A stretch of 64,000 nucleotides of DNA from Mobula hypostoma. Taxonomy: Eukaryota. How positions within the stretch are numbered: the first letter of the stretch is position 1; each line of letters starts with the position of its first letter. Positions 7,860 through 50,569 of the stretch are shown here, one piece after another. The notes beneath the pieces were generated by a model. It made no database searches. It worked only from the letters and a program-made list of their open reading frames with translations, and was not told the origin of the DNA. Where the stretch lies: positions 104,720,001 through 104,784,000 of the forward strand of contig NC_086107.1 of NCBI RefSeq assembly GCF_963921235.1, given 5' to 3'. Both the position numbers and the translations under genes were made by a program.

Positions 7860-7901
7860 CAGTCGACGTTTCAGGCCGAGACCCTTCGTCAGGACTAACT
7901 G
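7860..7901 (-). ncRNA. Minimal type I hammerhead ribozyme motif (Penelope pLTR)
   Basis: - strand AGTC-CTGACGA-AGGGTCTCGGCCT-GAAAC-GTC-GACT. Confidence 0.8.
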
Positions 7902-8407
7902 AAGGAAGAGTGAGTAAGGGATTTGAAAGCTGGAGGGGGAGGGGGAGATGCAAAATGATAGGAGAAGACAGGAGGGGGAGGGATAGAGCCAAGAGCTGGA
8001 CAGGTGATAGGCAAAAGGGGATACGAGAGGATCATGGGACAGGAGGTCCGGGAAGAAAGATGGGGGGGGGTGACCCAGAGGATGGGCAAGAGGTATATTC
8101 AGAGGGACAGAGGGAGAAAAAGGAGAGTGAGAGAAAGAATGTGTGCATAAAAATGAGTAACAGATGGGGTACGAGGGGGAGGTGGGGCCTAGCGGAAGTT
8201 GGAGAAGTCAATGTTCATGCCATCAGGTTGGAGGCTACCCAGACGGAATATAAGGTGTTGTTCCTCCAACCTGAGTGTGGCTTCATCTTTACAGTAGAGG
8301 AGGCCGTGGATAGACATGTCAGAATGGGAATGGGATGTGGAATTAAAATGTGTGGCCACTGGGAGATCCTGCTTTCTCTGGCGGACAGAGCGTAGATGTA
8401 GACTGGG

Positions 8408-8701
8408 GTGATATACTGCGTCCGGTGCTCCCGATGTGGCCTTTTATATATTGGTGAGACCCGACGCAGACTGGGAGACAGCTTTGCTGAACATCTACGC
8501 TCTGTCCGCCAGAGAAAGCAGGATCTCCCAGTGGCCACACATTTTAATTCCACATCCCATTCCCATTCTGACATGTCTATCCACGGCCTCCTCTACTGTA
8601 AAGATGAAGCCACACTCAGGTTGGAGGAACAACACCTTATATTCCGTCTGGGTATCCTCCAACCTGATGGCATGAACATTGACTTCTCTAACTTCCGCTA
8701 G
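8408..8701 (+). pseudogene. GIY-YIG endonuclease domain fragment of a Penelope-like element
   Basis: VIYCVRCSRCGLLYIGETRRRLGDSFAEH...PVATHFN...RLEEQHLIFRLGILQPDGMN; 5'-truncated. Confidence 0.9.
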
Positions 8702-8991
8702 GCCCCACCTCCCCCTCGTACCCCATCTGTTACTCATTTTTATGCACACATTCTTTCTCTCACTCTCCTTTTTCTCCCTCTGTCCCTCTGAATATACCTC
8801 TTGCCCATCCTCTGGGTCACCCCCCCCCCCCGTCTTTCTTCCCGGACCTCCTGTCCCATGATCCTCTCGTATCCCCTTTTGCCTATCACCTGTCCAGCTC
8901 TCGGCTCTATCCCTCCCCCTCCTGTCTTCTCCTATCATTTTGCATCGCCCCCTCCCCCTCCAGCTTTCAAATCCCTTACTCACTCTTCCTT

Positions 8992-9033
8992 CAGTTAGTC
9001 CTGACGAAGGGTCTCGGCCTGAAACGTCGACTG
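8992..9033 (+). ncRNA. Minimal type I hammerhead ribozyme motif (Penelope pLTR)
   Basis: Stem I AGTC/GACT, core CTGACGA (9001-9007), short stem II, GAAAC (9021-9025), and GTC with predicted cleavage after 9028. Confidence 0.8.
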
Positions 9034-9899
9034 CGCCTCTTCCTATAGATGCTGCTTGGCCTGCTGCGTTCACCAGCAACTTTGATGTGTGTTGCCTTAA
9101 TTAATTAGCTTGTTTATTTCGGCTTTTTTCTTAAAGGTGTGCTGAGTGTGTTCTGGCTACTGCTGTACCGCTGCATGCTTCGCTGCCCAGAGGTTGGGGA
9201 CCAGTGATAAGTCACTTATAAGGCAATAGCAGCGTAACATTTTAAGTAACGTTTGGATAATAAACACACAGTGCATATTTTTCTCATATGAACATATAAA
9301 ATGATTGCAACACACCTGTATCGCTGAATCAGTGGAGCCCTGGTCTTGTTTTCCTGCAATAAGACAGTCCCATCGAGAGGTGATGGGAACAGCGATACTC
9401 GAACAGGGTTCCTTATGTCCAGTGTATTCTGCAATTTAGTTTTCATTGCATTCATTGCAGAAAACTCCGCTTCACAGCGATATGATGTTGGAAATGGAAG
9501 CAACGTTTTCAGTGCTTTCGTGGCTATCTCAGGTTATTGAGCCTTGACTTTGATCCAGAATGCCGGCAGAGATGTTGTGTAAACATACTTTTCAGCTCAC
9601 TGTCATTTGCAAGCTCGAGGAGTTGATGATCTTCCCGCGCTGACATGGATGATTCACTGGGGACATTCACAAATGGGTCACGGACCCATTCCTTTGCACG
9701 TCTTGGGTCACCGATGACCTCGCGTGTGTTACAATTCAATAGTGGGCATGACAGGGAATGAGGAAAGGTGCAGCTGACTCATATCGCAAATCATATCGTT
9801 TCCTCGTGGCTTGGTATCGGTCCACAGCCAGGTGGTTGGGGACCACTGATCTAGATCCATGTTGAGACCCTGATCAATATGGGACACTTGGGAGTTGCC

Positions 9900-10510
9900 T
9901 TTTTCTGAGAGCAGATATTTAAACAAAAATCAACCAGTGCGTCTAAGTAGCCAGCAGAATCTTCTGGATACCTGCAGATTTGCAGATGAAGACCTCAAAC
10001 GTAGCCTGTGGTGTCAACCACGCAACAGTAATCTGTTCTCCTCCAAAGCCCTGGAGAAGTTCTTACAATGCTACTTTCTTATCCAATGTAAGTTGCCCTT
10101 TCCCAGGCCCTCATTCCTGCACTGAGCCCCTTATCATGCTCAACCAACTTCACAGGAAGCCCATCTGTGTGCGTACCTGACATGAGAATTTCAATGCAAG
10201 TGCACTTTGAGTTCTGTCACAGCAAGAATGTTACAGGAAAACAAAGAAAATGCTTCATGAAATTTTGCAAAGCTACTCTGAAAAATATGTAATATCCTCA
10301 CTAACTCATGGCAATCAATGTCTTAAGACTGCTCAGACTGATAGAAAATTTATCTGGAAATGCATTGAACTCTTTGGGTTTTGGGCTCATGTGGAGGCTA
10401 AGAGTAAACAATGGAAGGACAATGCAATAATCCAAAGGACCAACCTATCCACCCCATCAAACACCACCTCTCGCACTTGTGGCAAGATCTGCTGATCCTG
10501 CTAAAATCAT
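9900..10510 (+). mobile_element. Ancient RTE-type LINE 3' remnant
   Basis: Degenerate C-terminal region ending in TCGKIC, a zinc-finger-like motif. Confidence 0.4.
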
Positions 10511-11504
10511 TCGTCAGCATAAATATGACCAAAGTATAATAGAGGCTGTAATTCTTGTCCCTGACTGTAATGTTCATATTTAGCAGAAATACTGAATTGA
10601 TTGGAAGTACCTTGGTGGAATTGTTTTTTTTTGCAAATCCTTTTCTTGCTTTGCAGACTTTGAGATGCAGGTTAGCTCTAGCAAAGTTCACTGGGCTCAA
10701 AGATGTCAAATATTGAAAGGATGCTGATAAACATTAATGATAAATTTCATTTTTGGTAAAGTTAAATAGTTGAGTAGCTGTAGAATTATTTGAACTTGTA
10801 CTACAGAGATTTACTTTAATGGGTTGTCTGCGATATAAGTGTGGGATGTAGAAACAAATACCAAGAGTTCACTCTTTGTTGAGATGTGTTTCTTTCTGTG
10901 CATTTTGACAATTGCTGGCAGAGAGCATTGGCAAACTGCTTGCTTTTTCTTCCCATTGCTTCCTTTGTATTACTCTGTGCATACTTATGCCATGTGTGTG
11001 GTGGCTCAAGGCCTTTTGTAATCATCAGTCAGTATAACATGATGTTTCTTCCAATTTTAGCTCCATTTTCCAAGGAATATTAGCTTAAGTGAGCAGAGTA
11101 CATAGTACACTTGTTGAGATTGCTGATGTACAAGTTAAAATTCCTAAAATTGAGTATTTTAAAGTAATATTAGAGAGGACATGCCTAAGGTTTCTCCTTC
11201 CTGTTTCCTAACTAATCAAATGTTTTTTTTATTTCAATAACATTTAAGAGGAGGTGCAAGCAAGCTCTCTAATCTCATCCTAAAATGTCTTTTTGTTTTG
11301 TGGCTTTTGTCAGAGAATATGGTCTTTGTGAATTTGATTTTGGTTTAAACCTCAGCCCTGCTTTATAACAAGTGAAATTCTTAAGATTTTTTATGTTAGG
11401 TCAACAAATTGCTTCCATTAGAGTACATTTTAATGCTTTTTGCCTGGTGAGTGATAGAATGTAGAATATCTTGGACATTGCTATTACTGCAAATACTTGT
11501 GTGT

Positions 11505-13466: not shown

Positions 13467-14007
13467 GTAAGAAAGCTTATAGTTTCTACAGGGAGCTTTA
13501 ACTTAGTGTCAGCAATTTTTGGTGTCACAGGTTAATTTTACTTATGACCATATTTAAGAGAATTTCATGGTAGCTCTTGCAATAGATCCAAAGCCATTTC
13601 ATCCATCACTTAACTCTTACATTAAGTTCAAAGTCATTTCTGCATAGATTATTTGGATTCTTTATCCAAAGAATATATTGCTTACAAAATAATGGAAACA
13701 AAATCTTCAAAATGATGATCGTTGACTCTATTGCCCCTTAAAATCTTACTGGAACCACTCTTAATTTATTTCATTTCCCCAATAAAATCTAGGGTGCTGC
13801 ATGTTATTTCTGTGGCAAAACTGTTAAGTAAATTACAGAATTTTTTATCTTGAATCAGTTGTCAGCATTTTTAATTTGATACATTGGTACTCAAGCTTAA
13901 ATAAGTTTTGCCTCCCATCTTAATGGTGATGGTTGTGAAATGTTTAAAATAAACAGGAGCCCCGCAGAAGTATTTCAAATTTCAGAATTTGTGAGGGACC
14001 AATGAGG

Positions 14008-14146
14008 TTCCTGATGAAGTGTCTCTGCCTGAAACATTGACTGTACTCTTTTCCATAGGTGCTGCCTGGCCTGCTGACATTCCTCTAGCAGTTTGTGTTG
14101 TATTGCTTTGATTTCCAGCATCTGCAGATTTTCTCTTGTTTGTGAT
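14008..14146 (+). mobile_element. Short old Penelope terminus with hammerhead motif and tail
   Basis: CTGATGAAGTGTCTCTGCCTGAAACATTGACTG...TTCCAGCATCTGCAGATTTTCTCTTGTTTG. Confidence 0.75.
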
Positions 14147-15010: not shown

Positions 15011-15024
15011 ACTTTAATATTAAA

Positions 15025-15140: not shown

Positions 15141-15589
15141 CACTCTTGCTTTTGTTCAGCATAGACTTTCCTTTGAAAGTGCTTATTGCCTGGCACTTGT
15201 TGCAAATGTACTGTATTTCTTGCCACTTATCCTGTGCCAAAATGTTACATTGGAGGTCTTCTTGCATATAGGCATGGCTGCTTTATTTGCTGAGAAGTTG
15301 CCAAAAGTCTTGGACATTTTGCAGTCATCAGTGAACATCACTTCTGACTTTGCAGTTGCAAGGAGGTTACTGATGAAGCAGCTGAATATGATTAGGCTTA
15401 GGACACTCTGCCCTAAGGACCTTCTGAAGTGATATGCTGGGGCTTGGTGTTAACCTCCAGCAATCACATCCACCCTCATTTATGGGAAGTAGGAATCCAA
15501 CTATCCATTTGCTTTAATTTAATTTTAATCAGAATGCCTTTATGCTGTATTTGTTCATAAAAATTGCTGATAGTAAGATTTCTCTTACT

Positions 15590-15703
15590 ATCTCTTCTTT
15601 CAGTTAGTCCTGACAAAGGGTCTCGGCCCAAAATGTTGGCTGTACCTCTTTCTATAGATGCTGCCTAGCCTGCTGCATTCACCAGCAATTTTCATGTGTG
15701 TTA
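15590..15703 (+). mobile_element. Short Penelope terminus with mutated hammerhead
   Basis: CAGTTAGTCCTGACAAAGGGTCTCGGCCCAAAATGTTGGCTG...GTGTGTT; no tail. Confidence 0.8.
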
Positions 15704-17514
15704 GTTGAGAAGTCTTCTGCTTTTATTATGGAAGAATTGGTTAGCGGAAATTCAGTTTCCTACATTTTCACTGTCCAGTAGCCAGTAGTGTGTTACACAC
15801 TATTTTAAAATCAGACCCCAATTCTAACCTTTTAAAACAGGCACAAGATCTGACATGGAATATTGACTCGCTAATAAAACCTTTAGAGATTTGGATGAAG
15901 TTTCTTGATGTTGAACATGCCTACTGCCTAGCACGTGTTGACGCTGACAGAATTGTTATATCCCAAGGTCAAGATAAACCATGGGTCTCTCAGTCCCAAT
16001 CCTAATTTGAATAATTGCATGTAAACATGTTGAGTTAGTTAATGTGTCTAATTGCATTAAAATCATTGCACTAGCAATCAGGCTTCAGCACCCTGACATC
16101 TTGCTCTTTTGTAGCCTGATTTGCATTGTTATAGGTCAAACAGGAAGTTGCCTGTGCATCCAACTGGCATTGGTGCTGAATGCCTGTTTAGAAGTGCATA
16201 ATTGGTGTAACTAGATTTCATCCTTGTAATATCTTGATAGTCAGGCAACCCTACCAGTCATCCTCTGCCCGCTTTGTGTTCATCTTGATATTTGTATTCT
16301 CTGGCTGCAAAGTGTTAAGTAGATAAGTGTAAAGTTCTGATTGGTGTAATTATGATATTCTGTCCAATGTTATAAAATATTCTTCAGGAAAGAGAAAACT
16401 ATGAAGATAAAGAGCTTTTAGATTGTGAAAGAGCTTGATAACACACTGGGAAGATATTTGCACCTGTGTGCAGATGTATTAAGGATAAATGGGATAAGTA
16501 TTTCAGAAATCATGTTACTCTGTGGGAGGTTAGAATGCGCAAGTTCCAACCAAATAGATTTTTTTTCCTTTCTGAAACAAAGGTGTGACGATTGAATGCA
16601 AGACCAACCTCTATTGCCCACCTCTAATTTTCCTCTATAAAGTGTGAACTTCAGCTGCTGCGGTCAATATGGTAAATATGCTCCCATGGTGGTACTTGTG
16701 GTAGTGAAGTGTATGTCAGATTTATTATTATTTCTTTTTGTATTTGCTCAGATTGATTGGGGGCAGTCTTTCATTGATTCTATTGTTTCTTATATTTACT
16801 GTGAATGCCCACAAGAAAATGAATCTCAGGGTTGTGCATGTATTTGATAATAAATTTACTTTGAAGTTTGTAATTTAATCATATGCCTTGGAGGAAATGG
16901 TGTACACATGCCTTTGTTGTCTTTGTCCTTAGATAAAGAACTTGAGAATTCAGGAACTATTTACGAAAAAGTCATGACACTTTACTGTTCACCTCATTGC
17001 TGCTGTGCACAGTAAAAGGTGCACAATTGGAGGATGTGACATTTTAAAATAGTGGAAACATTTCTTCTCTCAGAGTTAAGAATATTTGAAATTCTCACTC
17101 CAGAAGTTTCTGAGTTCTCAGTTGTTGAATATAGGGATTACTGAGATTGATTGGTATTTGGATGCCAAGAAGAATCTCGGGGCATAGACATAAGGAAGTA
17201 GAGTTGTACTAAAGATCAACTTCTGTCTCATTAATTAAGATGCTTGAAGGATTGGATAGCTTTTGCTCTTTTGATGAGTTATGCCTTGAAGAAGAGGGAG
17301 ACTGATGCAAGTTAAGATAAATAAAAGTATTTGAAGGGAAGCTAGATAAATGCTTGAAGGACAAAGCATGAGAGACAGAATATGTTGATGAGTTGGTGGA
17401 GGTTTCTCTTAAGCATAGACCAATTGGACTGACTGGTCTGTTCCTGTGTAGCAATTCATTGTACATTCAGTTCAAAAGTCTGCTTTGACTTCGAGCACAA
17501 TCAGTATTTTCAAA

Positions 17515-20369: not shown

Positions 20370-21370
20370 GAGTATTGCAGCACAGAAAAAGGCCATTTAG
20401 CCAAAATATCTAGGTTCCCCATCAAATACCTATCTATGCTAATCCTTTATACCAGTACTTAGTCAGTAGCCTTCTGTACCTTGGTGATTCAAGATGTATT
20501 TTAAATGTACAGGTACCTGTCTCCACCACAGGCTATGGTTTCCAGAATCCAAACACAGTGGGGGAAAAAATATCCTCAAATCCCTTCTAACCTCATATCT
20601 CACCTTAAAATTATAGCTTCTGGTTTAAAATTTTTCCTTTAAAGGAAAAGATTCTCACGCTATTCACCCTGTTTGTGCCCTTCATACACGTATACCAGGT
20701 CCTCCTTCAGCCTACTCTGTTTCAAGGAAAACAAACCCAATCTATGGCAGCACACATAAAAGTTGCTGGTGAATGCAGCAGGCCAGGCAGCATCTCTAGG
20801 AAGAGGTACATTCGACGTTTCGGGCCGAGACCCTTCGTCAGGACTAACTTTTAGTTAGTCCTGACGAAGGGTCTCAGCCCAAAACGTCGACTGTACCTCT
20901 TTCTAGAGATGCTGCCTGGCCTGCTGCATTCACCAGCAACTTTTATGTGTGTTGCTTGAAATTCCAGCATCTGTAGATTTCCTCGTGTTTGTGTTTTTAA
21001 ACCCAACCTATGCAGTCTTTTCATGTAACTGAAACATTCCAACTCCAGGTAACAGTCTGGTAAATCTCCAGTGCATTCATTTAGTATATTGTGGTGACCA
21101 GAACTGCATCTGAATACTCTGGCTGTGACCTAACCAAAGTTTTATAAAGTTGTATTATGAACTCCATGCTTTTATATCTGAATAATGAAAGGCAGCATTC
21201 CTTGTGTCTTCACTACCTATATTTACCTCTGCTGCTGTCTTAGAGATCCATGGGCTTGTATATCAAAGTTCCTTTGCTCTTAAGTACTCCTGAGGCTCCT
21301 AGCATTCTTAATGATGATCCTTAGACCTCCCAAGATGTACCTCTGGCACTTTGCAGGATTAAATTCAGTC
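20370..21370 (-). mobile_element. Old CR1 LINE 3' portion
   Basis: CR1-like C-terminal remnants on the - strand (QFWSPQY, ECFSYMKRLHRLGL); hosts the Penelope palindrome. Confidence 0.65.
20747..20998. mobile_element. Short Penelope insertion forming a palindrome of two hammerhead units
   Basis: Arms 20747-20849 and 20853-20955 around TTT, with a tail on the right arm only. TSD AAACCCAA(T/C)CTATG (20733-20746, 20999-21012). Confidence 0.9.
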
Positions 21371-22502
21371 TTATAGTTCTCGTGAAAAGCTACCAAATGA
21401 GATTTAAAAATACTTGTTGACATCTGTACAGCTGGCAAGGCTACATCTTGACTGTATTGAGTTATAGATTGTCATGCAATTAGAGTTCTATGTACAGCAG
21501 ATCAGAAAATGACCCTTTCCCAGAGAGCATCAGTGATTTTAGATATAGATGTATAAAGATATATATATATTTATTATCTTTCATAAATACTTTTTATGGT
21601 ACCATCTCTAAAGTTACTAGATTCATTGTAATCTTTTTCAACTCTTTGGGACACTTATCCAACAATGTACCAGCAAGTCAGAGAAAAACTGTGTGATCCT
21701 CTACTTTGGATGTTTGTGGTAGACAGCCAAATTAGCAAATGGATGGAACAAACTAATGATCATCTCTATTTTCAATGGTGCTGTCAAATGCAAAATGTTC
21801 AAAGTTCCTCCATTGCCCCACCATTTTTGTCAAATTTTGTTCACTATCACCTCTGAAATTTCTTATGATCAACTAATTTAAAAGTAATAAATGCTAACTG
21901 TAAATAAATTTGCTTCCATCATTCTCAGAAATCATAACATCTTTTAAAAATTAACAAAAAAAATCCTTTCTCTAAGTTTGTGGTACTTCTACTGATCACC
22001 TTAATTCTGTCTCTTATATATTTAATTTACTTCCATTGGAACAATTCAACTTTGGTAAAACTCTTCTGTCTTTTTCTAATATCTTGCCGTTCTTTGGTGA
22101 CACCCAGAACTGAAAGCACTCTGTTTGAAGTTTAACAGGTGTTAAATATGTTGTGCAACTTCCTTGCTTCTATATTATTTCCTTGTTAATTTGTTTAAGG
22201 AAAGTTATGTGTGTTATTGGAAATAGTATGAATCAGGAACAGGAAGACTACTCTAAGCCAGGGGTCCCCAACCTTATTTACACTGCGGACCGGTTTATTA
22301 TTGACAATATTCTTGTGGACTGGCCAACCGGCGGGGCGGGGGGCGGGGTAGGGTTGCCAACGGACAAGAGTAGCAGTCAAGTACGTTGTTTACCCCCGAG
22401 AAAGACTACAATGACTATGAAGCCTTGTGTGGTACATGCGCATGCGTGTATGTGCCGATTTTTTTTCTACAAATCATTTTTGGCGATTCTGTTTGGGGGG
22501 GT

Positions 22503-23597
22503 TGTTGCTGCTCTGCTGGGGGAGAAGCTGACAGCGATGCAAGTGGATGCTTCCCTGGTATCATGGATTCTTGACTACCTGACTGGTAGACCACAGTACA
22601 TGTGCTTGCAACACTGTGTGTCCAACAGAGTGATCAGCAGCAGTGGGGCTCTACAGGGGACAGTCTTGTCTCCCTTTCTCTTCACCATTTACACCTCGGA
22701 CTTCAACTACTGCACAGAGTCTTGTCATCTTCAGAAAATTTCGGATGACTCTGCCATAGTTGGATGCATCAGCAAGGGAGATGAGGCTGAGTACAGGGCT
22801 ACGATAGGAAACTTTGTCACATGGTGTGAGCAGAATTATCTGCAGTTTAATGTGAAAAAGACTAAGGAGCTGGTGGTAGACCTGAGGAGAGCTAAGGTAC
22901 CGGTGACCCCTGTTTCCATCCAGGGGCTCAGTGTGGACATGGTGGAGGATTACAAATACCTGGGGATACGAATTGACAATAAACTGGACTGGTCAAAGAA
23001 CACTGAGGCTGTCTACAAGAAGGGTCAGAGCCGTCTCTATTTCCTGAGGAGACTGAGGTCCTTTAACATCTGCCGGACGATGCTGAGGATGTTCTACGAG
23101 TCTGTGGTGGCCAGTGCTATCATGTTTGCTGTTGTGTTCTGGGGCAGCAGGCTGAGGGTAGCAGACACCAACAGAATCAACAAGCTTATTCGTAAGGCCA
23201 GTGATGTTGTGGGGATGGAACTGGACTCTCTCACGGTGGTGTCTGAAAAGAGGATGCTGTCTAAGTTGCATGCCATCTTAAACGATGTCTCCCATCCACT
23301 ACATAATGTACTGGGTGGGCACAGGAGTACATTCAGCCAGAGACTCATTCCACCGAGATGCAGCACAGAGCATCATAGGAAGTCATTCTTGCCTGTGGCC
23401 ATCAAACTTTACATCTCCTCCCTTGGAGGGTCAGACACCCTGAGCCAATAGGCTGGTCCTGGACTTATTTCATAATTTACTGGCATAATTTACATATTAC
23501 TATTTAACTATTTATGGTTCTATTACTATTTATTATTTATGGTGCAACTGTAACGAAAACCAATTTCCTCCGGGATCAATAAAGTATGGCTATGATA
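22503..23597 (+). mobile_element. Young 5'-truncated Rex1/Babar LINE nested in Charlie copy 2
   Basis: Open RT frame from ALLGEKL to the stop at 23451 (WILDYLTGRPQ, QGTVLSPFLF, SDDSAIVG). 3' end GATCAATAAAGTATGGCTATGA. Confidence 0.93.
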
Positions 23598-23730
23598 TTA
23601 ATCACGACCGGAATATAGGTGGTAAGTGGCGAATACACTCAGTTTTGTTTCTAAAAGGGTTTATCTAACATATTTAATATTAAATACACAGCCCATATTT
23701 TCCTCACATGAATATAGTGATAAGTCAATC

Positions 23731-25659: not shown

Positions 25660-25754
25660 TTAGTCCTGACGAAGGGTCTCGGCCCGAAATGTCAACTGTA
25701 CCTCTCCCTAGCTGCCTGGCCTGCTGTGTTCACCAGCAACTTTGATGTGTGTTG
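25660..25754 (+). mobile_element. ~95-bp hammerhead-only Penelope-derived insertion
   Basis: TTAGTCCTGACGAAGGGTCTCGGCCCGAAATGTCAACTG...GTGTGTTG with 11-bp TSD CAGAGAAAATG (25649-25659, 25755-25765). Confidence 0.88.
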
Positions 25755-25944: not shown

Positions 25945-27198
25945 AGACATCTGGTCGCCTCACTATAGGAAGGATGTAGAAACCACAGAAAGGGTGCAGA
26001 GGAGATTTACAAGAATGGTGCCTGGGTTGGGGAGCATGCCTTATGAGAATAGGTTGAGTGAACTCTGCCTTTTTTCCTTGGAGTGACAGAGGATGAGAGG
26101 TGACCTGATAGAGGTGTATAAGATGATGAGAGGCATTGATCGTGTAGATAGTTAGAGGCTTTTTCACAGGGCTGATATGGCTAGAACACGAGGGCGCAGT
26201 TTTAAGGTGCTTGGAAGTGGTACAGAGGAGATGTCGGGGTAAGATTTGTACGCAGAGAGTGGTGAGTGCATGGAATGGGCTGCTGCCGACCGTAGATAGA
26301 TAGATAGATATACTTTATTGATCCCGAGGGAAATTAGGTTTCGTCACAGCTGCACCAACCAAGAATAGAGCATAAATATAGCATTACAAAAACCACAAAC
26401 AATCAAACAACAAAATGCAAACTATGCCAGATGGAAATAAGTCCAGAACCAGCCTATTGGCTCAGGGTTTCTGACTCTCCACGGGAGGAGCTGCAAAGTT
26501 CGATGGCCACAGGCAGGAACAACCTCCTGTGACGCCCAGTGTTGTATCTCGGTGCAATATGGCCGGAGTCCAACAGCAAAAAGTTCAATATCTGGTCTAC
26601 AAACACGTTCCTCGATCATAATATGACCCGGATTGCACCATTCATTGTTAACCAGAGCAGCAAGCCCCCAATTTCTTTACGCTTACCGCTCTCAGTGTGC
26701 TTCCAGTCAGCCCGAACGGTCTGGAAGCCGTCCATGGAAAAGTTTTGATCGCGTATGTCCTTGTGCAGCCCTGTTCCAGTAAAACACATTAACACTGCAC
26801 TCCCGAAATGTTCTCTGACGCCTGACTAGCGCTGTGAACTCGTCCATTTTATTACCCACCGAACTCCTCTTCTCCATAAGTCTCTGTTGTCTTGACCTGG
26901 TCCTCTTTCCTCACCTTTGTGATCCCCCTCTGCATCCTCTGTGTTTTCCTCAAGATTTCAGCTGGGGTTTCCGCTGCTCTGTTCGCTAAACCGAGTTGTC
27001 ACAGTAGGAACTACCACATTGCAATAAAAGTGGAGGCGGATACAATAGGGTCTTTTAAGAGACTCCTGGACAGGTACATGGAGCTCAGAAAAATAGAGGG
27101 CTATGGGTAACCCTAAGTAATTTCTAAGGTAAGCACATGTTCGGTACAGCTCAGTGGGCCGAAGGGCTTGCATTGTGCTGTAAGTTTTCTATGTTCTA
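25945..27198 (+). mobile_element. CR1 LINE 3' fragment (interrupted)
   Basis: WSPHYRKDVETTERVQRRFTRMVPGL...RGDLIEVYKMM. It resumes near 27030 (VEADTIGSFKRLLDRYM) and ends in TTCTATGTTCTA. Confidence 0.88.
26293..26993 (-). mobile_element. Internally deleted non-autonomous Rex1 derivative
   Basis: APE endonuclease N-terminal remnant (NKMDEFTALV...DGFQTVRAD...PDIELFAVGLRPY) joined to the same 3' end as the young Rex1; (TCTA)n tail. Confidence 0.8.
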
Positions 27199-28254: not shown

Positions 28255-28445
28255 TGTGCAACAAACAATTGCCTGGAGAAAATCAGTGGACCAAGCAGCA
28301 TCTGTGAGAGGAAAGAAATTGTCAGTGTCTCAGATCGAAAGCCTGCATCAGGATTACTTTCCTCCCACAGATACTGCTCGGCCTGCTGAGTTCCTCCAGC
28401 AGATTGTTTGTTCATTCCAGATTCCAGCATTGCACTCTCCTGTGA
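28255..28445. mobile_element. Older pair of inverted Penelope-derived termini
   Basis: A - strand unit with decayed CTGATGCAGG...CGATCTGAGAC, then a + strand unit ending CCAGATTCCAGCATTGCA. Confidence 0.6.
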
Positions 28446-30570: not shown

Positions 30571-30618
30571 CTTACTGTTAGTTTATGGCACCATGTTCAA
30601 GCTAATCTCAATGTTTAG

Positions 30619-36574: not shown

Positions 36575-37405
36575 AAGGATCTCTTTCAGGGAAGGTGGGA
36601 CCTGTACAGGTGGGATGGTTTGCACCTGAACTTGGGAGACTAATATCCTTGTGGAAAGGTTTGCTAGTGCTGCACGGTGGGGTTTAAACTAGAATTTGCA
36701 GAGAGATGGGAACGAGGGAAGTAGATAGTGGAGTCATTGTGGGGAAAGATATTGCTAAGCCGACACACAAAGTCAGGAATTGAAAGGTTGAGCATGGTGG
36801 GATTAATGTTCTGAGTTGTGTATATTTCACCATAAGGTGTATTGTAGAAAAAGCGGATGAGTTTAAGACATGGATTAGCACATGGGATTATGACGTTGTA
36901 GCCATTAGTGAGACCTGGTTGTAGGAGGGGCAGGACTGGCAGCTGAGAGTTCTTGGGTTTAGTTGTTTTAGATGTGATAGAGGGATTAAAGGAGGAGGGA
37001 TGGCATTACAAGTCAGGGCAGAGCTCAGGCAGGATAGACTGGAGAGCTTGTCTACTGAGGAATAACAAAAGAAAAACTACATTAATGGGATTATATATTA
37101 TAGGCCACCAAATAGTCTGCAGTATTTAGAGGAACAAATTTCTAGTGAGGTAGCAGACTTTTGCAAGAAACATAAGGTTGTGATAGTAGGTGATTTTAAC
37201 TTTACACATATCGATTGGGACTCCCATACTATTAAGAGGGCTGGATAGAATAGAGTTTGTAAAATGTGTTCAGGAAAGTTTCCTTAATTAATACATAGAG
37301 GTCTCAACTAAAGGAAGTGTAATATTAGATATCCTATTAGGGAATGAGCAGGGTAGGTGACAGAAACGTGTGTAGGGAACACTTTACATCTAGTGATCAT
37401 AATCC
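36575..37405 (+). mobile_element. CR1 LINE remnant: ORF1 (esterase-like) end and ORF2 endonuclease
   Basis: DLFQGRWDLYRWDGLHLN; KADEFKTWISTWDYDVVAISETWL; VVIVGDFNF. Confidence 0.85.
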
Positions 37406-37494
37406 AACTTTTTAAAAAAAGGATCTAGTGCTTTCCCAGCGTATATGACAAATAAACTCTTCTCGGGCTTCTAGCTGGGTACAAAAATCAATTT

Positions 37495-37537
37495 TAACTG
37501 AAGTTTCGATGACAGATTCTGCCATCTTCATCAGAGG
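37495..37537 (-). ncRNA. Hammerhead ribozyme motif of the second Penelope family
   Basis: - strand CTGATGA-A-GATGGCAGAATCTGTCATC-GAAAC-TTC, with a long stem II (GATGGCAG/CTGTCATC, one G-U pair). Confidence 0.7.
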
Positions 37538-37972
37538 TGATGCCTGGGCAGGTCTAGTCCAGTGGTATTAATACCCCTGTCGTCCATCCTCCTTGATAGG
37601 TTAGTCCTCATTCAATCAGGTTTCTACTGTCCCACCTTGTTTACAATCAAATTCTGGTTCTTATTTAGAGCAAGTCCTTTGCCTTTGTTAAAATTCTTTT
37701 CGTCTAGTTTTATTTCAATGGCTTCCTTCACCAAACAGTCCCAAAAGCCATTGATGTAGTTTTGTGCCATCAAAGTCAATCTTTTGGCCATAGCGAATGC
37801 AATGCTCTGCTGCCACCAATTTCTCTGGGAAACCCAAGTGGATACACCACCTGTGCTCCTTGATATGGGTTTCCACAGTGCATCCCGTCTGGCTGATGTA
37901 CACTGCTCTGTGTTCACAGTGAATCCTGTAAATGCCAGTCGTCCTGACTCCCAGGTCATCTTTGGCCTGCAT

Positions 37973-38969
37973 CATCATCATCATCATCATCATCATCAGG
38001 TGCTGTGCCCAGATTGAGCTTTCACTGCCGTGGCCCACACACTCTTGTTTTGGGTCAAGTGGATCAATTCATTTCCAGTTCTCCAGCTGCTGTCTCCATC
38101 ATCATTTGTCTTTGCCTTCCTTTTGCTTTCTTCCCTTCAATCTTTCCCATAATTACCGTGCATTCTAACTCCTCTTTCCTAATCATATGTCCAATGAAGT
38201 TACGTTGCCTTTTCATGATCTCATACATTATTTTTCTTTTTGTGCTTGCTCTGTTCATGATATCCTCGTTAGATATTCGTTCCATCCATGATATTCTTTG
38301 CATCCTCCTCAAAAACCACAGCTCTGCTGCTTCAATTAGTTTCCTCATGTTACTAGATATTGTCCAACATTCTGATCCATATAACATAACTGGATAAACA
38401 TAACATTTCAATGTTCTGAGGTGGATTGACATGCCTAGTTTAGTATTGGTCAGTATACTCTTCATTCTCGTAAAGGTGTCTTTTGCCATCCCTATTCTTC
38501 TTTTGATGTCCATGTCACATCTGCCATCTGATGTCACCCAGCTTCCTAAGTAGCAAAAGTTCTGTACTTATGTCTTCCCCATTTATTCTCAGCCTGCAGA
38601 TGAGATTCTCCTTTTTGGATATCACCATACATTCTGTCTTTTTGCAATTGATAGATAGACCCATTTTTGCACTTTCTTCAACAACTATATCAATTATGTT
38701 TTGTAGTTCTTCCTCCGTACTTGCAATTAACAAAGTGTCATCTGCATATCGGAAATTATTGATGTTTTCACCGTCAACTTTGATTCCCAAGATGTCTCTT
38801 ATTTTTGTAATATTGTTTCACTGTACACATTAAACAAATCAAGGGAGAAAACACACCCTTCTCTAACGCCTCTCTTGATTTTCGTAAACTGACTCACTTC
38901 TCCATCCATTCTTACAGCGGCAGTTTGTTCCCAGAACAGATTTCTGATTAGGCAGAGGTCTTTTGAATG
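37973..38969 (-). mobile_element. 5'-truncated RTE-clade LINE
   Basis: INNFRYADDTLLIA, GLSINCKKTECM and YVYPVMLYGSECW; (GAT)n tail. 13-bp TSD CTTTGGCCTGCAT (37960-37972, 38970-38982). Confidence 0.92.
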
Positions 38970-39266
38970 CTTTGGCCTGCATAAGATGTAATTTGAGCTT
39001 TCTTATGGGTTTGTGGATAGTATTAATCTGATATTTCTTCAGGATCCTGGAGATCCTTCCGAAAACCTTGGAAATGTAGGGAAGACAGGCAGTAGTGACA
39101 GGTTCCTCCTCATTGTTAGGTTTCCTAGATTTTCCATCGGCACTTATTAGTGCTTCTGAATGAACAAGATGGGAATTTTATTTTTAGAACTAATTTTAAT
39201 TTGAAAATCAAAAGCAACAAAACTAGTTTTTGGTTTTATATCCTGCTTAGTGACTCTGTGACTGTA

Positions 39267-39370
39267 TCGGTATAAAGAATAAAAACATTTATGTTTTAAA
39301 AAATTGACAAAAATGTTAATGTATTTTTGTCAATTTTTTAAAACATAAATGTTTTTATTCTTTATACCGA
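39267..39370. repeat. Perfect AT-rich inverted repeat (48-bp arms, 8-nt spacer)
   Basis: 39267-39314 is the exact reverse complement of 39323-39370. Confidence 0.95.
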
Positions 39371-40000: not shown

Positions 40001-41596
40001 CAGGTGTCCTCTGCTTTTCGAATGTTCACTTTACGAAACCTCACTGTTACAAAAGGCCTACATTAGTTCCCTGTTTTCGCTAACAGAAGGTGTTTTCACT
40101 GTTACGAAGAAAGGTAGCGCGCGAAAAAAAAAATCAGCGCGCGCCCTGAGCTGCCGCTCTCCCCCGGATTCGGAATGGCATTCTCACCGGCATTGCCTAA
40201 ACACGTACCTGTGAGCAGCCGTTTGCAAGATGAGTTCGAAGTTATCAGAAAAGCCTGAAAGAGCTTGTAAGAGTGTTACACTTAGCGTAAAACTAGACAT
40301 AATTAAGCGTTTTGTTCGTGGTGAATGAAGTAAGGACAAAGTGAGTTTGGCTTGTGGAAGTTGATGGAGATGATGTTGAAGGGGTTTTGGCATCCCATGA
40401 CCAAGCACTGATAAATGAAGAGCTGATGCAATTGGAAGAGGAAAGGATAACAATCAAAACCGAATGTAGTAGCGGAAGTGAAGTTGTCCAGGAACTGAAC
40501 GTGAGGCGACTGCGTGAGATTTTCGCTGCAATGATAAAATACGACTTTAATTTTGAAAGGGTACATCAGTTTATTGCAGGATGGTTTGAGTGCTTACAAA
40601 GAACTGTATGATAGAAAAATGCGCGAGGCTCAGCAGTCAAGCAAGCCTTCCACATCAGCCACAGCAGTCGACGAACCTCGACTTTCGACATCGAGGCGGG
40701 CAGACATAGAAGAAGATGACTTGCCTGCCCTGATTGATGATGAGGTGACACCCCAGTGTCCTACCACCCTAACCCCCAAGCCCCAGACAGATACCGATTC
40801 GTGGAGAATGCAGCGGTAGCTGGAACGCAGTCAGCACATCTTTAAGAAGAAAAGCCAAAATAAACAAGCTAATTAATTAGGTGCCAGCTGGCATGTAAAT
40901 GTCAGCCCAGATCAGAGGCGATTGCCGATTGCGTCGCCTCTGATCTGGGCCGACATGTACGTGCCGGGTGACACCTAATTAATTAGCCTGTTTATTTCGG
41001 CTTTTTTCCTAAAGATATGCTGGGTGCGTTCTAGCCACCGCTGTACCACTGCATGCTTTGCGGATCGGTATCGGTTCGCTGCCTGGAGGGTGGGGGCCAC
41101 TGCACCACCCAAACTCCGACTCAGTCTAACACACCATCATCAGTATGCTCGATGTCTTCACGATTCCCGTAAGTGATACTACACTGTACATACATTATTC
41201 CTCCTTTCTATTGGCTGTGTATGTTTACGCGTTATTTGGTATGATTTGGCAGCTTCATAGCTTAAAGGTTACTGGAGAGCGCTTGCGCCGTGTTTCTGCC
41301 GAGAGCGCTTGCGTGAGATTTTCACTATGGAGAACAGTGTGCAATGATTGTGGAAAAGTATTTCTACTTTATATAGGCTGTGTATTCATCATATCATTCC
41401 TGCTTTTACTATATGTTACTGTTATTTTAGGTTATATGTGTTATTTGGCATGATTTGGTAGGTTATTTTTGGGTCTGTGAACACTCACAAATTTTTCCCA
41501 TATAAATTAATGGTAATTGCTTCTTTGCTTTACGACATTCCAGCTTACGAACTGTTTCATAGGAACGCTCTACCTTCGGATGGCGGGGGAAACCTG
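40001..41596 (+). mobile_element. Internally deleted Tigger/pogo element
   Basis: Imperfect TIRs CAGGTGTCCTCTGC / GCGGGGGAAACCTG|TA. CENP-B-type HTH start (KSVTLSVKLDIIKRFVRGE) joined to the acidic C-terminus (EVDGDDVEGVLASHDQALINEELMQLEEE). Confidence 0.85.
40754..41102. mobile_element. Palindromic hAT MITE inside the Tigger element
   Basis: Same sequence as the MITE at 7532-9206, with the central spacer in the opposite orientation; long inverted arms centred near 40927. Confidence 0.82.
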
Positions 41597-41694: not shown

Positions 41695-41836
41695 ACAAGA
41701 CACTGCAGATGCTGGAATCTGGCGCAACATACGGGTCCTGATATAGGGTTTCAACCCAAAGTGCTGACTGTTCATTTTTTTTTACCATAGATGCTGCCTG
41801 ACATGCTTCGTATCACCATCATTTTATGTGTTGCTC
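41695..41836. mobile_element. Old short Penelope-derived insertion (inverted tail plus decayed hammerhead unit)
   Basis: CTGCAGATGCTGGAATCT on the - strand, then GTCCTGATATAGGGTTTCAACCCAAAGTGCTGACTG on the + strand. Confidence 0.6.
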
Positions 41837-46602: not shown

Positions 46603-47382
46603 TAAAAACGCAAACAACAGGAATTCTGCAGAAGCTGGAAATTCAAGCAACATGCATAAAAGTTGCTGGTGAACGCAGCAGGCCAGGCAGCATCTCTAGG
46701 AAGAGGTGCAGTCGACGTTTCAGGCCGAGACCCTTCTTCAGGACTAACTGGAGGAAGAGTGAGTAAGGGATTTGAAAGTTGGAGGGGGAGATCCAAAATG
46801 ATAGGAGAAGACAGGAGGGGGAGGGATGGAGCCAAGAGCTGGACAGGTGATAGGCAAAAGGGATACGAGAGGATCATGGGACAGGAGGTCCAGGAAGAAA
46901 GACAAGTGGGGGGGACCCAGAGGATGGGCAAGGGGTATATTCAGAGGGACAGAGGGAGAAAAAGGAGAGTGAGAGAAAGAATGTGTGTATAAAAATAAGT
47001 AACAGATGGGGTACGAGGGGGAGGTGGGGCATTAGCGCAAGTTAGAGAAGTCAATGTTCGTGCCATCAGGTTGGAGGATACCCAGACGGAATATAAAGTG
47101 TTGTTCCTCCAACCTGAATGTGGCTTCATCTTTACAGTAGAGGAGGCTGTGGATAGACATGTCAGAATGGGAATGGGATGTGGAATTAAAATGTGTGGCC
47201 ACTGGGAGATCCTGCTTTCTCTGGCAAAGCGGTCTCCCAGTCTGCGTCGGGTCTCGCCAATATATAAAAGGCCACATCGGGAGCACCGGACGCAGTATAT
47301 CACCCCAGCCGACTCACAGATGAAGTGTTGCCTCACCTGGAAGGACTGTTTGGAGCCCTGAATGGTGGTAAGGGAGGAAGTA
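46603..47382 (-). mobile_element. 5'-truncated Penelope-like element with GIY-YIG, hammerhead (46709-46750) and tail
   Basis: RQHFICESAGVIYCVRCSRCGLLYIGETRRRLGDRF; same family as 7762-9097. Confidence 0.92.
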
Positions 47383-49104
47383 GCACACCATATAAGTGGC
47401 CGGATCTGGAATTTTAGAGTGCAGCATTTAATTCCTTTGTGAATTGAAATACTATTAAGGCCATAATTTGTTAAATTGGATCCAAATTTGTTCTGATTTA
47501 ATGAAGGATGACTGTAAAAATTGTCTATGAAATCCCTTAAAGCTTAAAAAAAAATAAGATTCACTTGTAGGTTGAGTATCCAGGTCCTCCCGGATTGCAA
47601 ATGCCCAACATCTGAGCATACCAATGAGCATTTGGGAGACTTGAGAGATGGATAAAAATGGATTTACCAGCTGCTGCAGGGCCATGTTTGGCTGAGTGGA
47701 AGCAGGGCATTTACGCTTTACTTCATTGAGTAATTGAGTCTGATTATCACTCTCACTCACCCGCGCCCGCTTGCTCTCCTGTCACAGTCATTTCTGTGAT
47801 TCTCTCCCATACACTGTTTTTGTTTTTTCCCCATTTACAAACAGTTCAGATTACAAACATTTCTCCGGATCAGAATCCTGTTGTTACCTGGGGCCAGACT
47901 GCGGACAAGTTTCAAACTCAGAGTGAGCTGCAGTTTGTGTTCTGAAATATTATGAAAGAAAGCCTATTCCAATACTTATAGCATTCATCAGTCATGCTGC
48001 TTATTTATATACTAAATTGAAGTCATTTATCATTGCTGGTTCAAATAAGAATAGGAAACTGAGTAATAAATGCAGTTATACACTAGCATTTTATCTTTGT
48101 GGTTGTCGATATCCACCCTAGAGTGAATGCATTTGTGCCTCCTTCATGCTGAAATGATTGTGGGCACTCTTATTTTTAAAAAAATGGTTTATAGTTGATG
48201 TGAGCCAGAATGTATTGGGAACCTCACCAGGCCATGTGACGATTGTTGTCATTTATTGGGACAATGTCACATGGCCGTTAAGGTTGCTCTTGGTCAATAT
48301 GGTGAAGCATTGTGGAACTAAACAAGATCAGCTTGGTGCTAATGCTCTTTCATGAAAAGTGACGAATACTTTTGTCTAGCAATTGCACCTTTAACCAGAA
48401 AAAAAAATTGGGGAGAGAATTAATGTTTCAGGATCAGTGGCTTTAATCAGGAAGTTCTGATCAATAACAGACCTGAAATATCAACTCTGAAATATCCACA
48501 GGTGCCTGACATTGTGGGTAGGGATGCAGAGTGGTGATCTGCAGTGTTGGTCTTTTTCTACTGCTCAGTTTCTGTTATTGGTACACATAATGTTTTGAAA
48601 TACTGGGTGATGATAGCAATGCATAAGTCATTAGCAGACATCCCACCCTGCAAAAACTCATTTCAGAGAGGTAGCACCCCTGCCCCCAGCAAATCCATAT
48701 TCTCCCCCCGCCCCAGGTTGACCTCCAAGGGTGTATGTAATACTTTGTTTAGTGATTTTGTCTAATCTGTAAACCACGTTGGGTATATGCAGAAAATGTG
48801 ACATTAAAATATGTACTTATATTATATTATCATGTTTATTCTATTACAACTTTAAGCAAGTCTACAGGGAGTTTGGTCTCATCACGTAGGACATCAATAG
48901 CTTAGCTCCTTAGCAGCCATCTAGTTTAAATAACGTTAGATATGCTAATGAACAAATGACACCTATTAAACTCACCTCAGCATGTCTTTTACATTTTAAC
49001 CCACCATGGGCAATAGAAAAGTCACTGTTGCAAACAGAGCAGCGAGCAACACTGTCATTATTTTTGAGGTCGACTGTAAAGCTTGCCCACAGAGAAAACT
49101 GATA

Positions 49105-49207
49105 GGTCTGAATTGGATGATCAGCCATGATCATACTGAATGGCGGCGCAGGCTCGAAGGGCCGAATGGCCTACTCCTGCACCTATTTTCTCTGTTTCTA
49201 TGTCTAC
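49105..49207 (+). mobile_element. CR1 3' terminal fragment
   Basis: GGATGATCAGCCATGATCATACTGAATGGCGGCGCAGGCTCGAAGGGCCGAATGGCCTACTCCTGCACC; matches 60826-60900. Confidence 0.85.
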
Positions 49208-49211
49208 TTAG

Positions 49212-50569
49212 CAGGGATCCCTAACCTTTTTTGCACCGCGAACCGATTTAATATTGACAATATTCTTGCGGACCTGCCGACCGGGGGGCGGGGGGGGGGG
49301 TGTTAATCACGACCGGAACATAGGTGATAAGTCAACTATAAGTCACTTATAAGTGGCTAATACACTCAATTTCGATTCTAAAAGGGTTTATCTAACGAAT
49401 TTAATATTAAACACACAGCCCATACTTTCCTCGCATGAATATAATGATAAGTCAATTATAAGTCAATTGCATCATAACATTTTAAGTAAACGTTTGGATA
49501 TTAAATACACAGAGCATATTTTCCTCGTATGAGATCATTGCAACACACCAATATCGCTGAATCAATGGGAGCCCTGGGCTTGTTTTCCTGCAACAAGACG
49601 GTGCCATCGAGGGGTGATGGGAGACAGCGATACTCGAAGGGGGTTCCTTATGTCCAGTCTATTCTGCGATTTAGTTTTCGTTGCATTCAATGCAGAAAAC
49701 TCCACTTTGCAGAGATATCCAAGCAACACACATCAAAGTTGCTGGTGAACGCAGCAGGCCAGGCAGCATCTCTGGGAAGAGGTACAGTCGATGTTTCGGG
49801 CTGAGACCCTTCATCAGGACTAACTGAAGGAAGAGCTAGTAAGAGATTTGAAAGTGGGAGGGGGAGGGATGGAGCCAAGAGCTGGACAGGTGATTGGCGA
49901 AAGGGATATGAGAGGATCATGGGACAGGAGGCCCAAGGAGAAGGAAAAGGGGGAGGGGGGAAAAAACCCAGAGGATGGGCAAGAGGTATAGTCAGAGGGA
50001 CAGAGGGAGAAAAAGGAGAGAGAGAGAGAAAGAATGTGTGTGTGTATAAATAAATAACGGATGGGGTACGAGGGGGAGGTGGGGCATTACCGGAAGTTAG
50101 TGAAGTTAATGTTCATGCCATCAGGTTGGAGGCTACCCAGACGGAATATAAGGTGTTGTTCCTCCAACCTGAGTGTGGCTTCATCTTTACGGTAGAGGAG
50201 GTCATGGATAGACATATCCGAATGGGAATGGGATGTGGAATTAAAATGTGTGCCGTGGATAGACATATCTGAATTTGCAGAGATATGTTGGAAATGGAAG
50301 CAACATTTTCAGTGCCTCCGTGACTATCTCAGGATATTGAGTCTAGACTTTGATCCAGAATGCCAGCAAAGATGTTATGTTAAACATACTTTTCAGCCCA
50401 CCATCATTAGCAAGCTTGAGGAGTTGATCTTCTTCCCGCGCTGACATGGATGACGCGTGCGTAATGACCTCGCGTATGTTCAAATTCAATAGTGTATGAC
50501 AGGGAATGAGGAAAGGTGCAGCTGACTCATATCGCCAAATCATATCATTTCCTCGATATGAGGACCACT
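49212..50569 (-). mobile_element. Non-autonomous hAT (Charlie3/MER1-like), copy 3
   Basis: Left end CAGGGATCCCTAACCTTTTTTGCACCGCG; colinear with copies 1 and 2; right end partly deleted (GAGGACCACT). Confidence 0.88.
49719..50273 (-). mobile_element. Penelope fragment nested in Charlie copy 3 (hammerhead 49785-49826)
   Basis: Same family as 7762-9097. 13-bp TSD TTTGCAGAGATAT (49706-49718, 50274-50286). Confidence 0.9.

What the first reader, a model, noticed from the sequence alone, without database searches (positions are those of the whole stretch)
7860..49826. Dispersed family of minimal hammerhead ribozymes in Penelope termini
Seen: the motif AGTC-CTGANGA-(A)GGG..CCC-GAAAC-GTC-GACT recurs. 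The core is intact at 7860-7901(-), 8992-9033(+), 20811-20849(-) and 46709-46750(-). Variants lie at 14008, 25660 and 49785, and decayed copies near 4953, 15601, 20853, 28320 and 41735. Stem III has no loop and is just the palindrome ACGT. Known: Penelope-like pLTRs carry minimal type I hammerheads thought to cleave as dimers. Inference: intact copies on both strands could make any transcript through this region a conditional self-cleavage substrate.
Basis: partly seen in the sequence, partly recalled or inferred. Interest (0 to 1): 0.75.

Follow-up and report, generated by a model that had tools for sequence, protein, structure and literature searches.

The report
Decaying Penelope hammerheads in a ray
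These are real copies of the tiny hammerhead RNA motif that Penelope-type jumping genes are already known to carry in their ends, left as cut-down insertions in a likely ray genome; most are mutated or predicted to be locked in hairpins, so they likely do not cut host RNA.

Summary
Observation confirmed: all 12 listed sites exist; four keep the full catalytic core (0 in 100 shuffles). They are 3' ends of 5'-truncated, probably Neptune-type Penelope-like elements (GIY-YIG piece 94% identical to a ray protein), with inverted arms, an optional 35-nt tail and target-site duplications. The motif is the published minimal hammerhead (Cervera and de la Pena 2014). Stems covary across distant families: 45 of 71 related loci carry the motif downstream of the nuclease, 1 of 71 antisense. 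So it is selected in source elements. Corrections: no copy matches the motif exactly as written; three intact copies have G·U at 10.1/11.1; 7860 and 8992 are one insertion. The host-cleavage inference is poorly supported. Three of four intact copies sit in head-to-head pairs predicted to bury the ribozyme in duplex. Monomers are predicted to fold into an inactive rod. Core and stem CpGs decay as fast as unconstrained ones, and no host exon was found. Cleavage was not tested. The scan has noted this kind of family before on other DNA (56 notes). Ordinary. Open points: copies start just before the motif, never at the cut site, and acceptor-like sites bracket it.

The parts
7762..8399 (-). Inverted, 5'-truncated arm of a Penelope-like element end: nuclease C-terminus, 3' UTR, hammerhead, ~35-nt tail
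7861..7896 (-). Minimal hammerhead, core intact, stems I and II 4/4, G10.1·U11.1; predicted cut after 7865
8403..9097 (+). Direct arm of the same insertion, no tail; 98-99% complementary to the inverted arm
8402..8698 (+). GIY-YIG endonuclease C-terminal piece (99 aa); 94% identical to P0001
   Evidence: PF01541 E=0.0037, 18 bits, below the 22.6 cut-off
8997..9032 (+). Minimal hammerhead, core intact, G10.1·U11.1; C3 at 9001, predicted cut after 9028
7748..7761 (+). Left target-site duplication (14 bp, AT-rich) of the 7762-9097 insertion
9098..9111 (+). Right target-site duplication of the same insertion
20747..20849 (-). Short inverted arm, no tail; hammerhead 20810-20845 with intact core, G10.1-C11.1, one stem I mismatch
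20853..20998 (+). Short direct arm with tail; hammerhead 20857-20892 with G12>A; unit flanked by a 14-bp duplication with one mismatch (20733-20746, 20999-21012)
46611..47378 (-). Longest copy, no inverted arm beside it: nuclease region to tail; hammerhead 46710-46745 with intact core, N7=A, G10.1·U11.1
49714..50252 (-). Truncated copy; hammerhead 49786-49821 with G16.2>A (palindrome broken); 3,076 nt upstream of the 46741 core on the same strand
25660..25754 (+). 95-nt copy starting 6-7 nt before C3, 11-bp target-site duplication; hammerhead 25662-25697 with C15.2>U and G1.1>A
15581..15708 (+). Short copy; hammerhead 15606-15641 with G8>A, G12>A
14009..14142 (+). More diverged copy with tail; hammerhead 14007-14042, core bases kept but G16.2>A and stem mismatches
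4954..5089 (+). More diverged copy with tail; hammerhead 4954-4989 with A9>G, H17>G; a small nuclease-region piece lies at 4767-4828 in the opposite orientation
28260..28412 (.). Decayed fold-back copy; hammerhead remnant 28320-28355 (-) with 3 core changes; the other arm holds only sequence 3' of the motif
41734..41835 (+). Decayed copy; hammerhead remnant 41734-41769 with 5 core changes
37496..37538 (-).

Best explanation
The sites are the hammerhead-bearing 3' ends of 5'-truncated Penelope-like retroelement insertions, likely of the Neptune type; the motif likely cuts RNA only in the source element's tandem transcript, as a dimer or with the element's protein, while the scattered copies likely decay without function. 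Shown: sequence, position about 300 nt after the nuclease stop, inverted arms, optional tail, target-site duplications, covarying stems across families, equal CpG decay inside and outside the motif. Inferred: (1) reverse transcription starts at one of two sites 3' of the motif, giving the two 3' end classes, and usually stops early; (2) a lone motif has no helix III and is predicted to collapse into an inactive rod (G5-C17, A6-U16.1, C7-G16.2, G8-C15.2); (3) two same-strand copies, as in a pLTR-ORF-pLTR transcript, would pair ACGU with ACGU into a double hammerhead that cuts after C17, probably needing the element protein; (4) in head-to-head insertions the antisense arm would bury the motif in long duplex RNA.
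For: Motif real. Element identity: GIY-YIG piece with close ray homologs, of which P0001, P0003, P0004 show the RT YIDD/YVDN region and a CX3-4CX2C linker upstream. Insertion anatomy matches PMC8557442 and PMC3846280 passages: tail on one arm only in both well-preserved pairs; 3' ends at +94 to +103 or +128 to +141 from C3. Selection in source elements: 45 of 71 evaluable related loci carry the motif 79-163 nt after the nuclease match, 1 of 71 antisense; 7 of 8 pairs change on both sides, 93.8% of cells paired against 61.5% shuffled and 32-47% slid; loose ends pile up at 8997 and 9033, the motif's edges. No selection on copies: CpG changes 9 of 42 in core and stems, 9 of 42 elsewhere, in 7 close copies; in four runs CpG decay at G12, stem III, C17 and G1.1 spans the loop II level. 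Folding: rod -11.0 against open form -7.0 kcal/mol; double hammerhead -11.5 against -22.0 for two monomers and -30.3 for the best mis-paired dimer; 33-36 of 36 bases paired to the opposite arm. Literature: a monomer did not cleave and dimers cleaved weakly (PMC4209133); the anole element's hammerhead cleaved only with protein (PMC11167929).
Against: No cleavage was measured. Non-CpG changes are fewer in core and stems than elsewhere (2 of 161 against 20 of 436, p=0.08; 4 of 90 against 76 of 591, p=0.02, with diverged copies); this fits differences between source elements or ascertainment, but weak selection on copies is not excluded. One search listed no rows outside 9015-9045, so the CUGANGA half was not assessed there, and its figures are contig depths, not copy counts. 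The 12 sequences were picked by a descriptor that demands pairing, and the 71 loci are a handful of families. Nearest-neighbour energies ignore the tertiary core, Mg2+ and protein. U11.1 is about 80% of depth in run X1, so a successful subfamily departs from the conserved G-C pair. None of 12 copies begins at the cut site, and in the anole element catalytic mutants did not affect insertion in vitro, so cleavage may not be what is selected. The linker that marks Neptune is seen only in homologs, not in window copies.
Confidence: 0.7

Rival explanations
1. The motif is kept in source elements mainly as a structure, not as a knife: a hairpin that would mark the RNA start, a splice boundary or a protein-binding site, with cleavage incidental.
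For: 6 of 12 copies (two from one insertion) begin within 8 nt upstream of C3 and 0 of 12 at the cut site. Acceptor-like polypyrimidine-YAG sites sit at 8992-8994 and 9046-9048. U11.1 is common. Anole catalytic mutants inserted normally and no RNA-seq ends mapped to the cut site. Naiad elements thrive without canonical hammerheads.
Against: Catalytic bases, not only stems, are kept across families whose nucleases are only 40-50% identical. A plain hairpin would not need CUGANGA, GAAA and UH. No acceptor-like AG precedes stem I in the 11 metagenome loci inspected by eye.
Confidence: 0.14
2. The roughly 100-140-nt copies that start at the motif are a non-autonomous, SINE-like family that would be copied as its own short RNA.
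For: Fixed 5' and 3' ends and target-site duplications on short units.
Against: Short copies are 82-92% identical to the long nuclease-bearing copy for the close subfamily, with the same end classes; 5' ends also fall at -29, -456, -484 and -567; no tandem units.
Confidence: 0.08
3. One reading: intact copies make host transcripts through this region conditional self-cleavage substrates.
For: Four intact cores; the family is very abundant (13,907 and 48,484 contigs laid in runs X1 and X20), so partners in trans are conceivable. The 49817 and 46741 copies lie 3,076 nt apart on one strand, and by the dimer geometry one of their two centres would be complete. Protein-assisted cleavage exists in another Penelope-like element.
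Against: Three of four intact cores are predicted buried in inverted-arm duplex. That heterodimer is -8.3 against -23.6 kcal/mol for mis-paired forms. Stems I and II of the solo 46741 copy have probability 0.01 or less in a 400-nt context. CpG decay is neutral. 0 of 249 frames gave a host protein family.
Confidence: 0.07
4. The hammerhead likeness is chance, multiplied by copying of one repeat.
For: Window copies are not independent; Rfam finds no hammerhead.
Against: Same motif at the same place with different, compensated stems in distant families.
Confidence: 0.01

Closest known systems
Minimal hammerheads (min-HHR) in pLTRs of metazoan Penelope-like elements (Cervera and de la Pena 2014, PMC4209133)
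   Same: Type I, no loop 3, palindromic 15.2-16.2, extra base between 9 and 10.1, mostly dispersed single motifs, opposite-strand pairs close together; reported in fish Xena, Poseidon and Neptune elements.
   Different: Stem II is 4 bp (7-8 bp in the Schistosoma families). Five of 12 copies have U11.1. No shark or skate term in the one supplementary file searched; file 1 was not searched.
EN+ Penelope-like elements, Neptune type (Craig et al. 2021, PMC8557442)
   Same: C-terminal GIY-YIG with CCHH residues, 5' truncation, adjacent inverted copy, 30-40-bp tail at one end; CX2-5CxxC linker in the 94% homolog P0001.
   Different: No RT or full-length copy in the window; no RT tree built; insertions here are in AT-rich targets, not microsatellites.
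Poseidon element of Anolis carolinensis (Frangieh et al. 2024, PMC11167929)
   Same: Hammerhead in the pLTR, two 3' end classes, AT-rich target.
   Different: Other clade. There the ORF starts at stem II; here the start of the ORF is unknown. Activity was measured there, not here.
Non-LTR retrozymes of animals (preprint 10.64898/2026.07.22.740005; PMC7761336)
   Same: Type I hammerheads of Penelope origin; found in the one chondrichthyan sampled.
   Different: Retrozymes are tandem arrays with a ribozyme in each unit; these copies are solo or inverted and several retain nuclease sequence.

Membership tests
min-HHR of metazoan PLEs | Core CUGANGA ... GAAA ... UH between helix I and helix II | tested here: met
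   4 of 12 copies have all core bases plus ACGU
min-HHR of metazoan PLEs | No helix III loop; palindromic 15.2-16.2 | tested here: met
   ACGU in 5 of 12 copies, the rest changed
min-HHR of metazoan PLEs | Unpaired base between positions 9 and 10.1 | tested here: met
   A in all 12 copies
min-HHR of metazoan PLEs | Highly conserved G10.1-C11.1 pair | tested here: inconclusive
   G-C in 7 of 12 copies, G·U in 5, among them 3 of the 4 intact cores; C is 20% of depth in X1 and 61-86% in X14, X23, X13
min-HHR of metazoan PLEs | Lies in the terminal repeat downstream of the PLE ORF, sense strand | tested here: met
   about 300 nt after the stop at 8699-8701; 45 of 71 related loci sense, 1 antisense
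min-HHR of metazoan PLEs | Compensatory changes in helices across families | tested here: met
   7 of 8 pairs change on both sides in 12 chosen sequences; (selection bias noted)
min-HHR of metazoan PLEs | Cleaves as a dimer or with protein, not as a monomer | not testable with these tools
   only folding energies
EN+ PLE, Neptune type | C-terminal GIY-YIG endonuclease with CCHH motif | tested here: met
   PF01541 below cut-off; C9, C12, H31, H47 conserved in A2; naming these four as the CCHH motif is from recall
EN+ PLE, Neptune type | CX2-5CxxC linker upstream of the nuclease (absent in Penelope/Poseidon) | tested here: inconclusive
   present in P0001 and other homologs; the longest window copy's match starts just downstream of it
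EN+ PLE, Neptune type | 5' truncation, adjacent inverted copy, optional 30-40-bp tail, target-site duplication | tested here: met
EN+ PLE, Neptune type | RT phylogeny places it in the clade | not tested
   no RT sequence in the window copies; no tree built
Non-LTR retrozymes | Head-to-tail tandem units each with a hammerhead | tested here: not met
   self-comparison shows no tandem units; nearest same-strand neighbours among close copies are kilobases apart
Rfam hammerhead families | Match to a curated covariance model | tested here: not met
   no hammerhead family up to E=10; likely because the motif lacks helix III (inference)

The most novel reading that the evidence does not exclude
The motif is a protein-gated switch: N7 pairs with 16.2 to lock a lone copy in an off rod, and the element's own protein opens it. 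A burst of Neptune protein would then cut the many host pre-mRNAs that carry solo copies with an intact core and tail, such as 46611-47378, alone or with the copy 3 kb upstream acting as the enzyme strand. That would be transposon-triggered cleavage across the transcriptome of sharks and rays.
Probability: 0.05. Interest if true: 0.7.

Novelty: new member of a known kind. Interest (0 to 1): 0.13.

Why it matters
As found, little: it adds a ray family to a class described in 2014 and seen many times by this scan. What these ribozymes do in vivo is still called a mystery in PMC7761336, and an abundant, young family with close full-length relatives is a usable system for that question. If solo copies were cut when the element protein is expressed, very many host introns could be affected; the evidence here makes that unlikely.

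Tried and rejected
Rfam scans of the window and of 8960-9070 found no hammerhead; the listed miRNA, snoRNA and sRNA matches are all below gathering score and rejected. No whole genome is held, so no genome-wide count or orthologue test. Pattern scans found 0 loci in metagenome contigs and 0 in viral contigs; the nuclease search found no relative in viral contigs and 3 loci in prokaryote genomes, of which L081 had too little flank and L082-L083 were weak partial matches that I left out. No RNA holder listed; all eight runs laid were contigs, so expression, strand and RNA ends are untested. Host gene: 249 stop-to-stop frames of 55 aa or more outside my repeat mask gave one LINE endonuclease hit and no host family; short or unmodelled exons would be missed, and a long intron is not excluded. 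Splicing at the acceptor-like sites: no GT..AG joint among the joints shown, but only the best-supported were listed. Two homolog searches for the second element near 37.6-39.2 kb found nothing; the Atlas gave GIY-YIG at 0.96. In one search two copies were read out of register; corrected. Lunse et al. (PMC5785218) could not be read. Look-ups of earlier notes by place, by sequence and by splice terms returned nothing.
Full report
1. Observation. All eight variant and decayed sites are present. In the + copy, stem I is 8997-9000 with 9029-9032, C3 is 9001, an extra A follows A9, stem II is 9009-9012 with 9017-9020, ACGU is 9024-9027 and C17 is 9028. Read base by base: three copies keep core, both stems and ACGU, all three with G10.1·U11.1; 20810-20845 keeps the core and G10.1-C11.1 but has a stem I mismatch; 20857-20892 has only G12>A; 49786-49821 only G16.2>A; the other six carry two or more damaging changes. 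A model built from 12 motifs recovers 10 of the 12 sites at E below 0.1, misses the two most decayed, and finds the extra motif at 37494-37540 (the model includes the 9001 copy).

2. What carries the motif. Upstream of three insertions lies the end of a GIY-YIG nuclease. The 99-aa piece at 8402-8698 has 26 homologs among 96 candidates, the best 94% (named from Mobula) and 87% (Hypanus), so the host is likely a ray. P0001, P0003 and P0004 show the RT catalytic region upstream and, like most homologs, a CX3-4CX2C linker. Craig et al. say Penelope/Poseidon lack this linker (PMC8557442, passages), so the family is probably Neptune type; the window's longest copy matches only from just after the linker. 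The insertions have the published anatomy. 7762-8399 (-) and 8403-9097 (+) are head-to-head arms, 98-99% complementary, within one 14-bp AT-rich duplication, with the tail on one arm only. 20747-20849 and 20853-20998 repeat this in miniature. 25660-25754 has an 11-bp duplication. My simple search found no clear duplication for 7 of 10 units. 3' ends fall at +94 to +103 (6 copies) or +128 to +141 (4 copies, plus the reference copy) from C3; one decayed copy aligned only to +58. In the anole element these two end classes are the two reverse-transcription start sites (PMC11167929, parts 1-2 of 4 read). The family covers about 5.9% of the window by my intervals and thousands of contigs per run: 13,907, 9,079, 228 and 48,484 in X1, X5, X9, X20.

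3. Is the fold selected? Yes, in source elements. Of 81 related loci examined (80 best of 393 confirmed in metagenomes, plus L081), 10 had under 150 nt of downstream flank and were dropped. 45 of the remaining 71 have a minimal hammerhead with at most one core change on the sense strand within 500 nt of the nuclease match; 1 of 71 has one antisense. These nucleases are 40-50% identical to ours, and the loci represent only a handful of families. In 12 motifs I chose (11 of the 45 plus the window's), 7 of 8 pairs change on both sides and 93.8% of cells pair, against 61.5% shuffled and 32-47% slid; the choice by a pairing descriptor inflates this. Independently, contigs from other subfamilies stop aligning at 8997 and 9033, the edges of stem I.

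4. Are the scattered copies selected? No sign. Among 7 close copies, CpG positions changed 9 of 42 times in core and stems and 9 of 42 elsewhere; non-CpG 2 of 161 against 20 of 436, p=0.08. With three diverged copies added, non-CpG core is 4 of 90 against 76 of 591 in the tail, p=0.02, which I read as differences between source elements, though weak selection is not excluded. In runs X1, X14, X13, X23 the loop II CpG decays by 2.1-3.9, 14.1-16.4, 6.4-8.3 and 10.0-12.7% of depth; G12, stem III, C17 and G1.1 decay by 2.1-3.3, 8.8-26.3, 6.7-14.6 and 10.1-14.9%. These are depths of contigs, and no rows were listed outside 9015-9045, so the CUGANGA half was not covered.

5. Could they cleave? Untested; folding argues against. 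The 38-nt monomer's best fold pairs G5-C17, A6-U16.1, C7-G16.2 and G8-C15.2 (-11.0 kcal/mol against -7.0 open). The 46741 copy, with A7, escapes this rod alone, but in 400 nt of context its stems have probability 0.01 or less. With 10-nt flanks the rod has probability only 0.18-0.60 in the other three, because other folds compete. The double hammerhead scores -11.5 against -22.0 for two monomers and -30.3 for the best mis-paired dimer. In both inverted pairs the antisense arm is transcribed first from either side, and 33-36 of 36 ribozyme bases pair with it. Same-strand intact cores are 12.9 and 25.9 kb apart. The one interesting pair is 49817 then 46741, 3,076 nt apart: one of two centres would be complete, but the dimer scores -8.3 against -23.6. 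These energies omit tertiary contacts, Mg2+ and protein. They agree with the papers: a Schistosoma monomer did not cleave and dimers cleaved weakly (PMC4209133, parts 1-2 of 4 read, figures not seen); the anole motif cleaved only with protein, was not needed for insertion in vitro, and left no RNA-seq ends at the cut site. No host exon was found in 249 frames, so not even the transcript or its strand is known.

6. Mechanism. Most likely (0.7) the motif works in the source element's tandem RNA, as a dimer through ACGU or with the element protein, to trim the precursor, and the dispersed copies are by-products. The cleavage step is inferred from core conservation and from other families. A structural role without needed cleavage (0.14) is the main rival. 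6 of 12 copies begin within 8 nt before C3 (20841, 20861, 25666, 14011, 28351; 41738) and none at the cut site. Earlier notes of this scan report the same pile-up and read it as the element's RNA start; I reuse that as one option and could not test it. Acceptor-like sites on both sides of the motif (8992-8994, 9046-9048) offer a splice reading, recalling the Drosophila virilis intron that ends at helix I; it is not seen before stem I in 11 metagenome loci and is untested.

7. Comparison and novelty. This is the minimal hammerhead of Cervera and de la Pena, who already describe dispersed single motifs, opposite-strand pairs and fish Neptune elements. It is not a retrozyme array (preprint 10.64898/2026.07.22.740005, part 1 of 5 and passages). 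I found no paper on this family in sharks or rays in six searches (listings) or in one of two supplementary files of PMC4209133; file 1, the preprint's supplements and Lunse et al. (title only, via reference lists) were not seen and may hold it. PMC6765202, PMC3846280 and PMC7761336 were seen as passages. The scan holds 56 notes with my search words in at least 20 genomes, eight shown, all reaching a similar verdict; these are unchecked and not used as support.

8. Verdict. Real, correctly named, ordinary: a new member of a known kind, interest 0.13. The host-cleavage idea survives only in a protein-gated form, at about 5%.

Noticed in passing
window 37496-37538 (-), with 37627-38068 and 38866-39177 (-): A second minimal hammerhead with an 8-bp stem II lies just 3' of a different GIY-YIG remnant (Atlas 0.96) that is split by a LINE-type RT fragment at about 38064-38860. 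It looks Poseidon-type, a label from recall; two homolog searches found nothing.
   Followed up: partly
window 8973-8994 and 9036-9048 (+): Polypyrimidine-YAG, splice-acceptor-like sites bracket the hammerhead; the downstream one is kept in diverged subfamilies whose tract sequence differs.
   Followed up: partly
window 9020, and 11.1 of the copies at 7892, 46741, 14011, 28351: U in place of the conserved C11.1; about 80% of depth in run X1 but 14-39% in three other runs, so probably a subfamily trait.
   Followed up: partly
window 9003-9006 with 9025-9028; same in L001, L008 families: N7 is C, complementary to G16.2, in this family and in two metagenome families, giving a predicted inactive rod; other families have U, A or G there.
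   Followed up: partly
window 9032: T>A at stem I position 1.4 is 57-78% of depth in runs X14, X13 and X20; whether 8997 changes to match could not be seen.
   Followed up: no
window 7532-7761, 9098-9183, 40767-41102: The 7762-9097 insertion sits inside a palindromic, MITE-like repeat with a near-perfect 46-bp hairpin at 7648-7751; a relative lies at 40.8-41.1 kb.
   Followed up: no
window 59349-59878 and 39267-39370: A 530-bp imperfect palindrome with internal repeats, and a 104-bp palindrome, not examined.
   Followed up: no
window 3513-4508 (-), 22129-23599 (+), 26304-26558, 52657-53683 (-), 37066-37245 (+): Other transposon remains: LINE reverse-transcriptase ends 93% alike, a Tc1/mariner transposase remnant, a LINE endonuclease piece.
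   Followed up: no
P0003, P0005, P0008: Source names such as kinase-domain, mucin-2 and receptor-transporting protein sit on proteins that contain this element's nuclease, suggesting exonised or mis-annotated element sequence.
   Followed up: no
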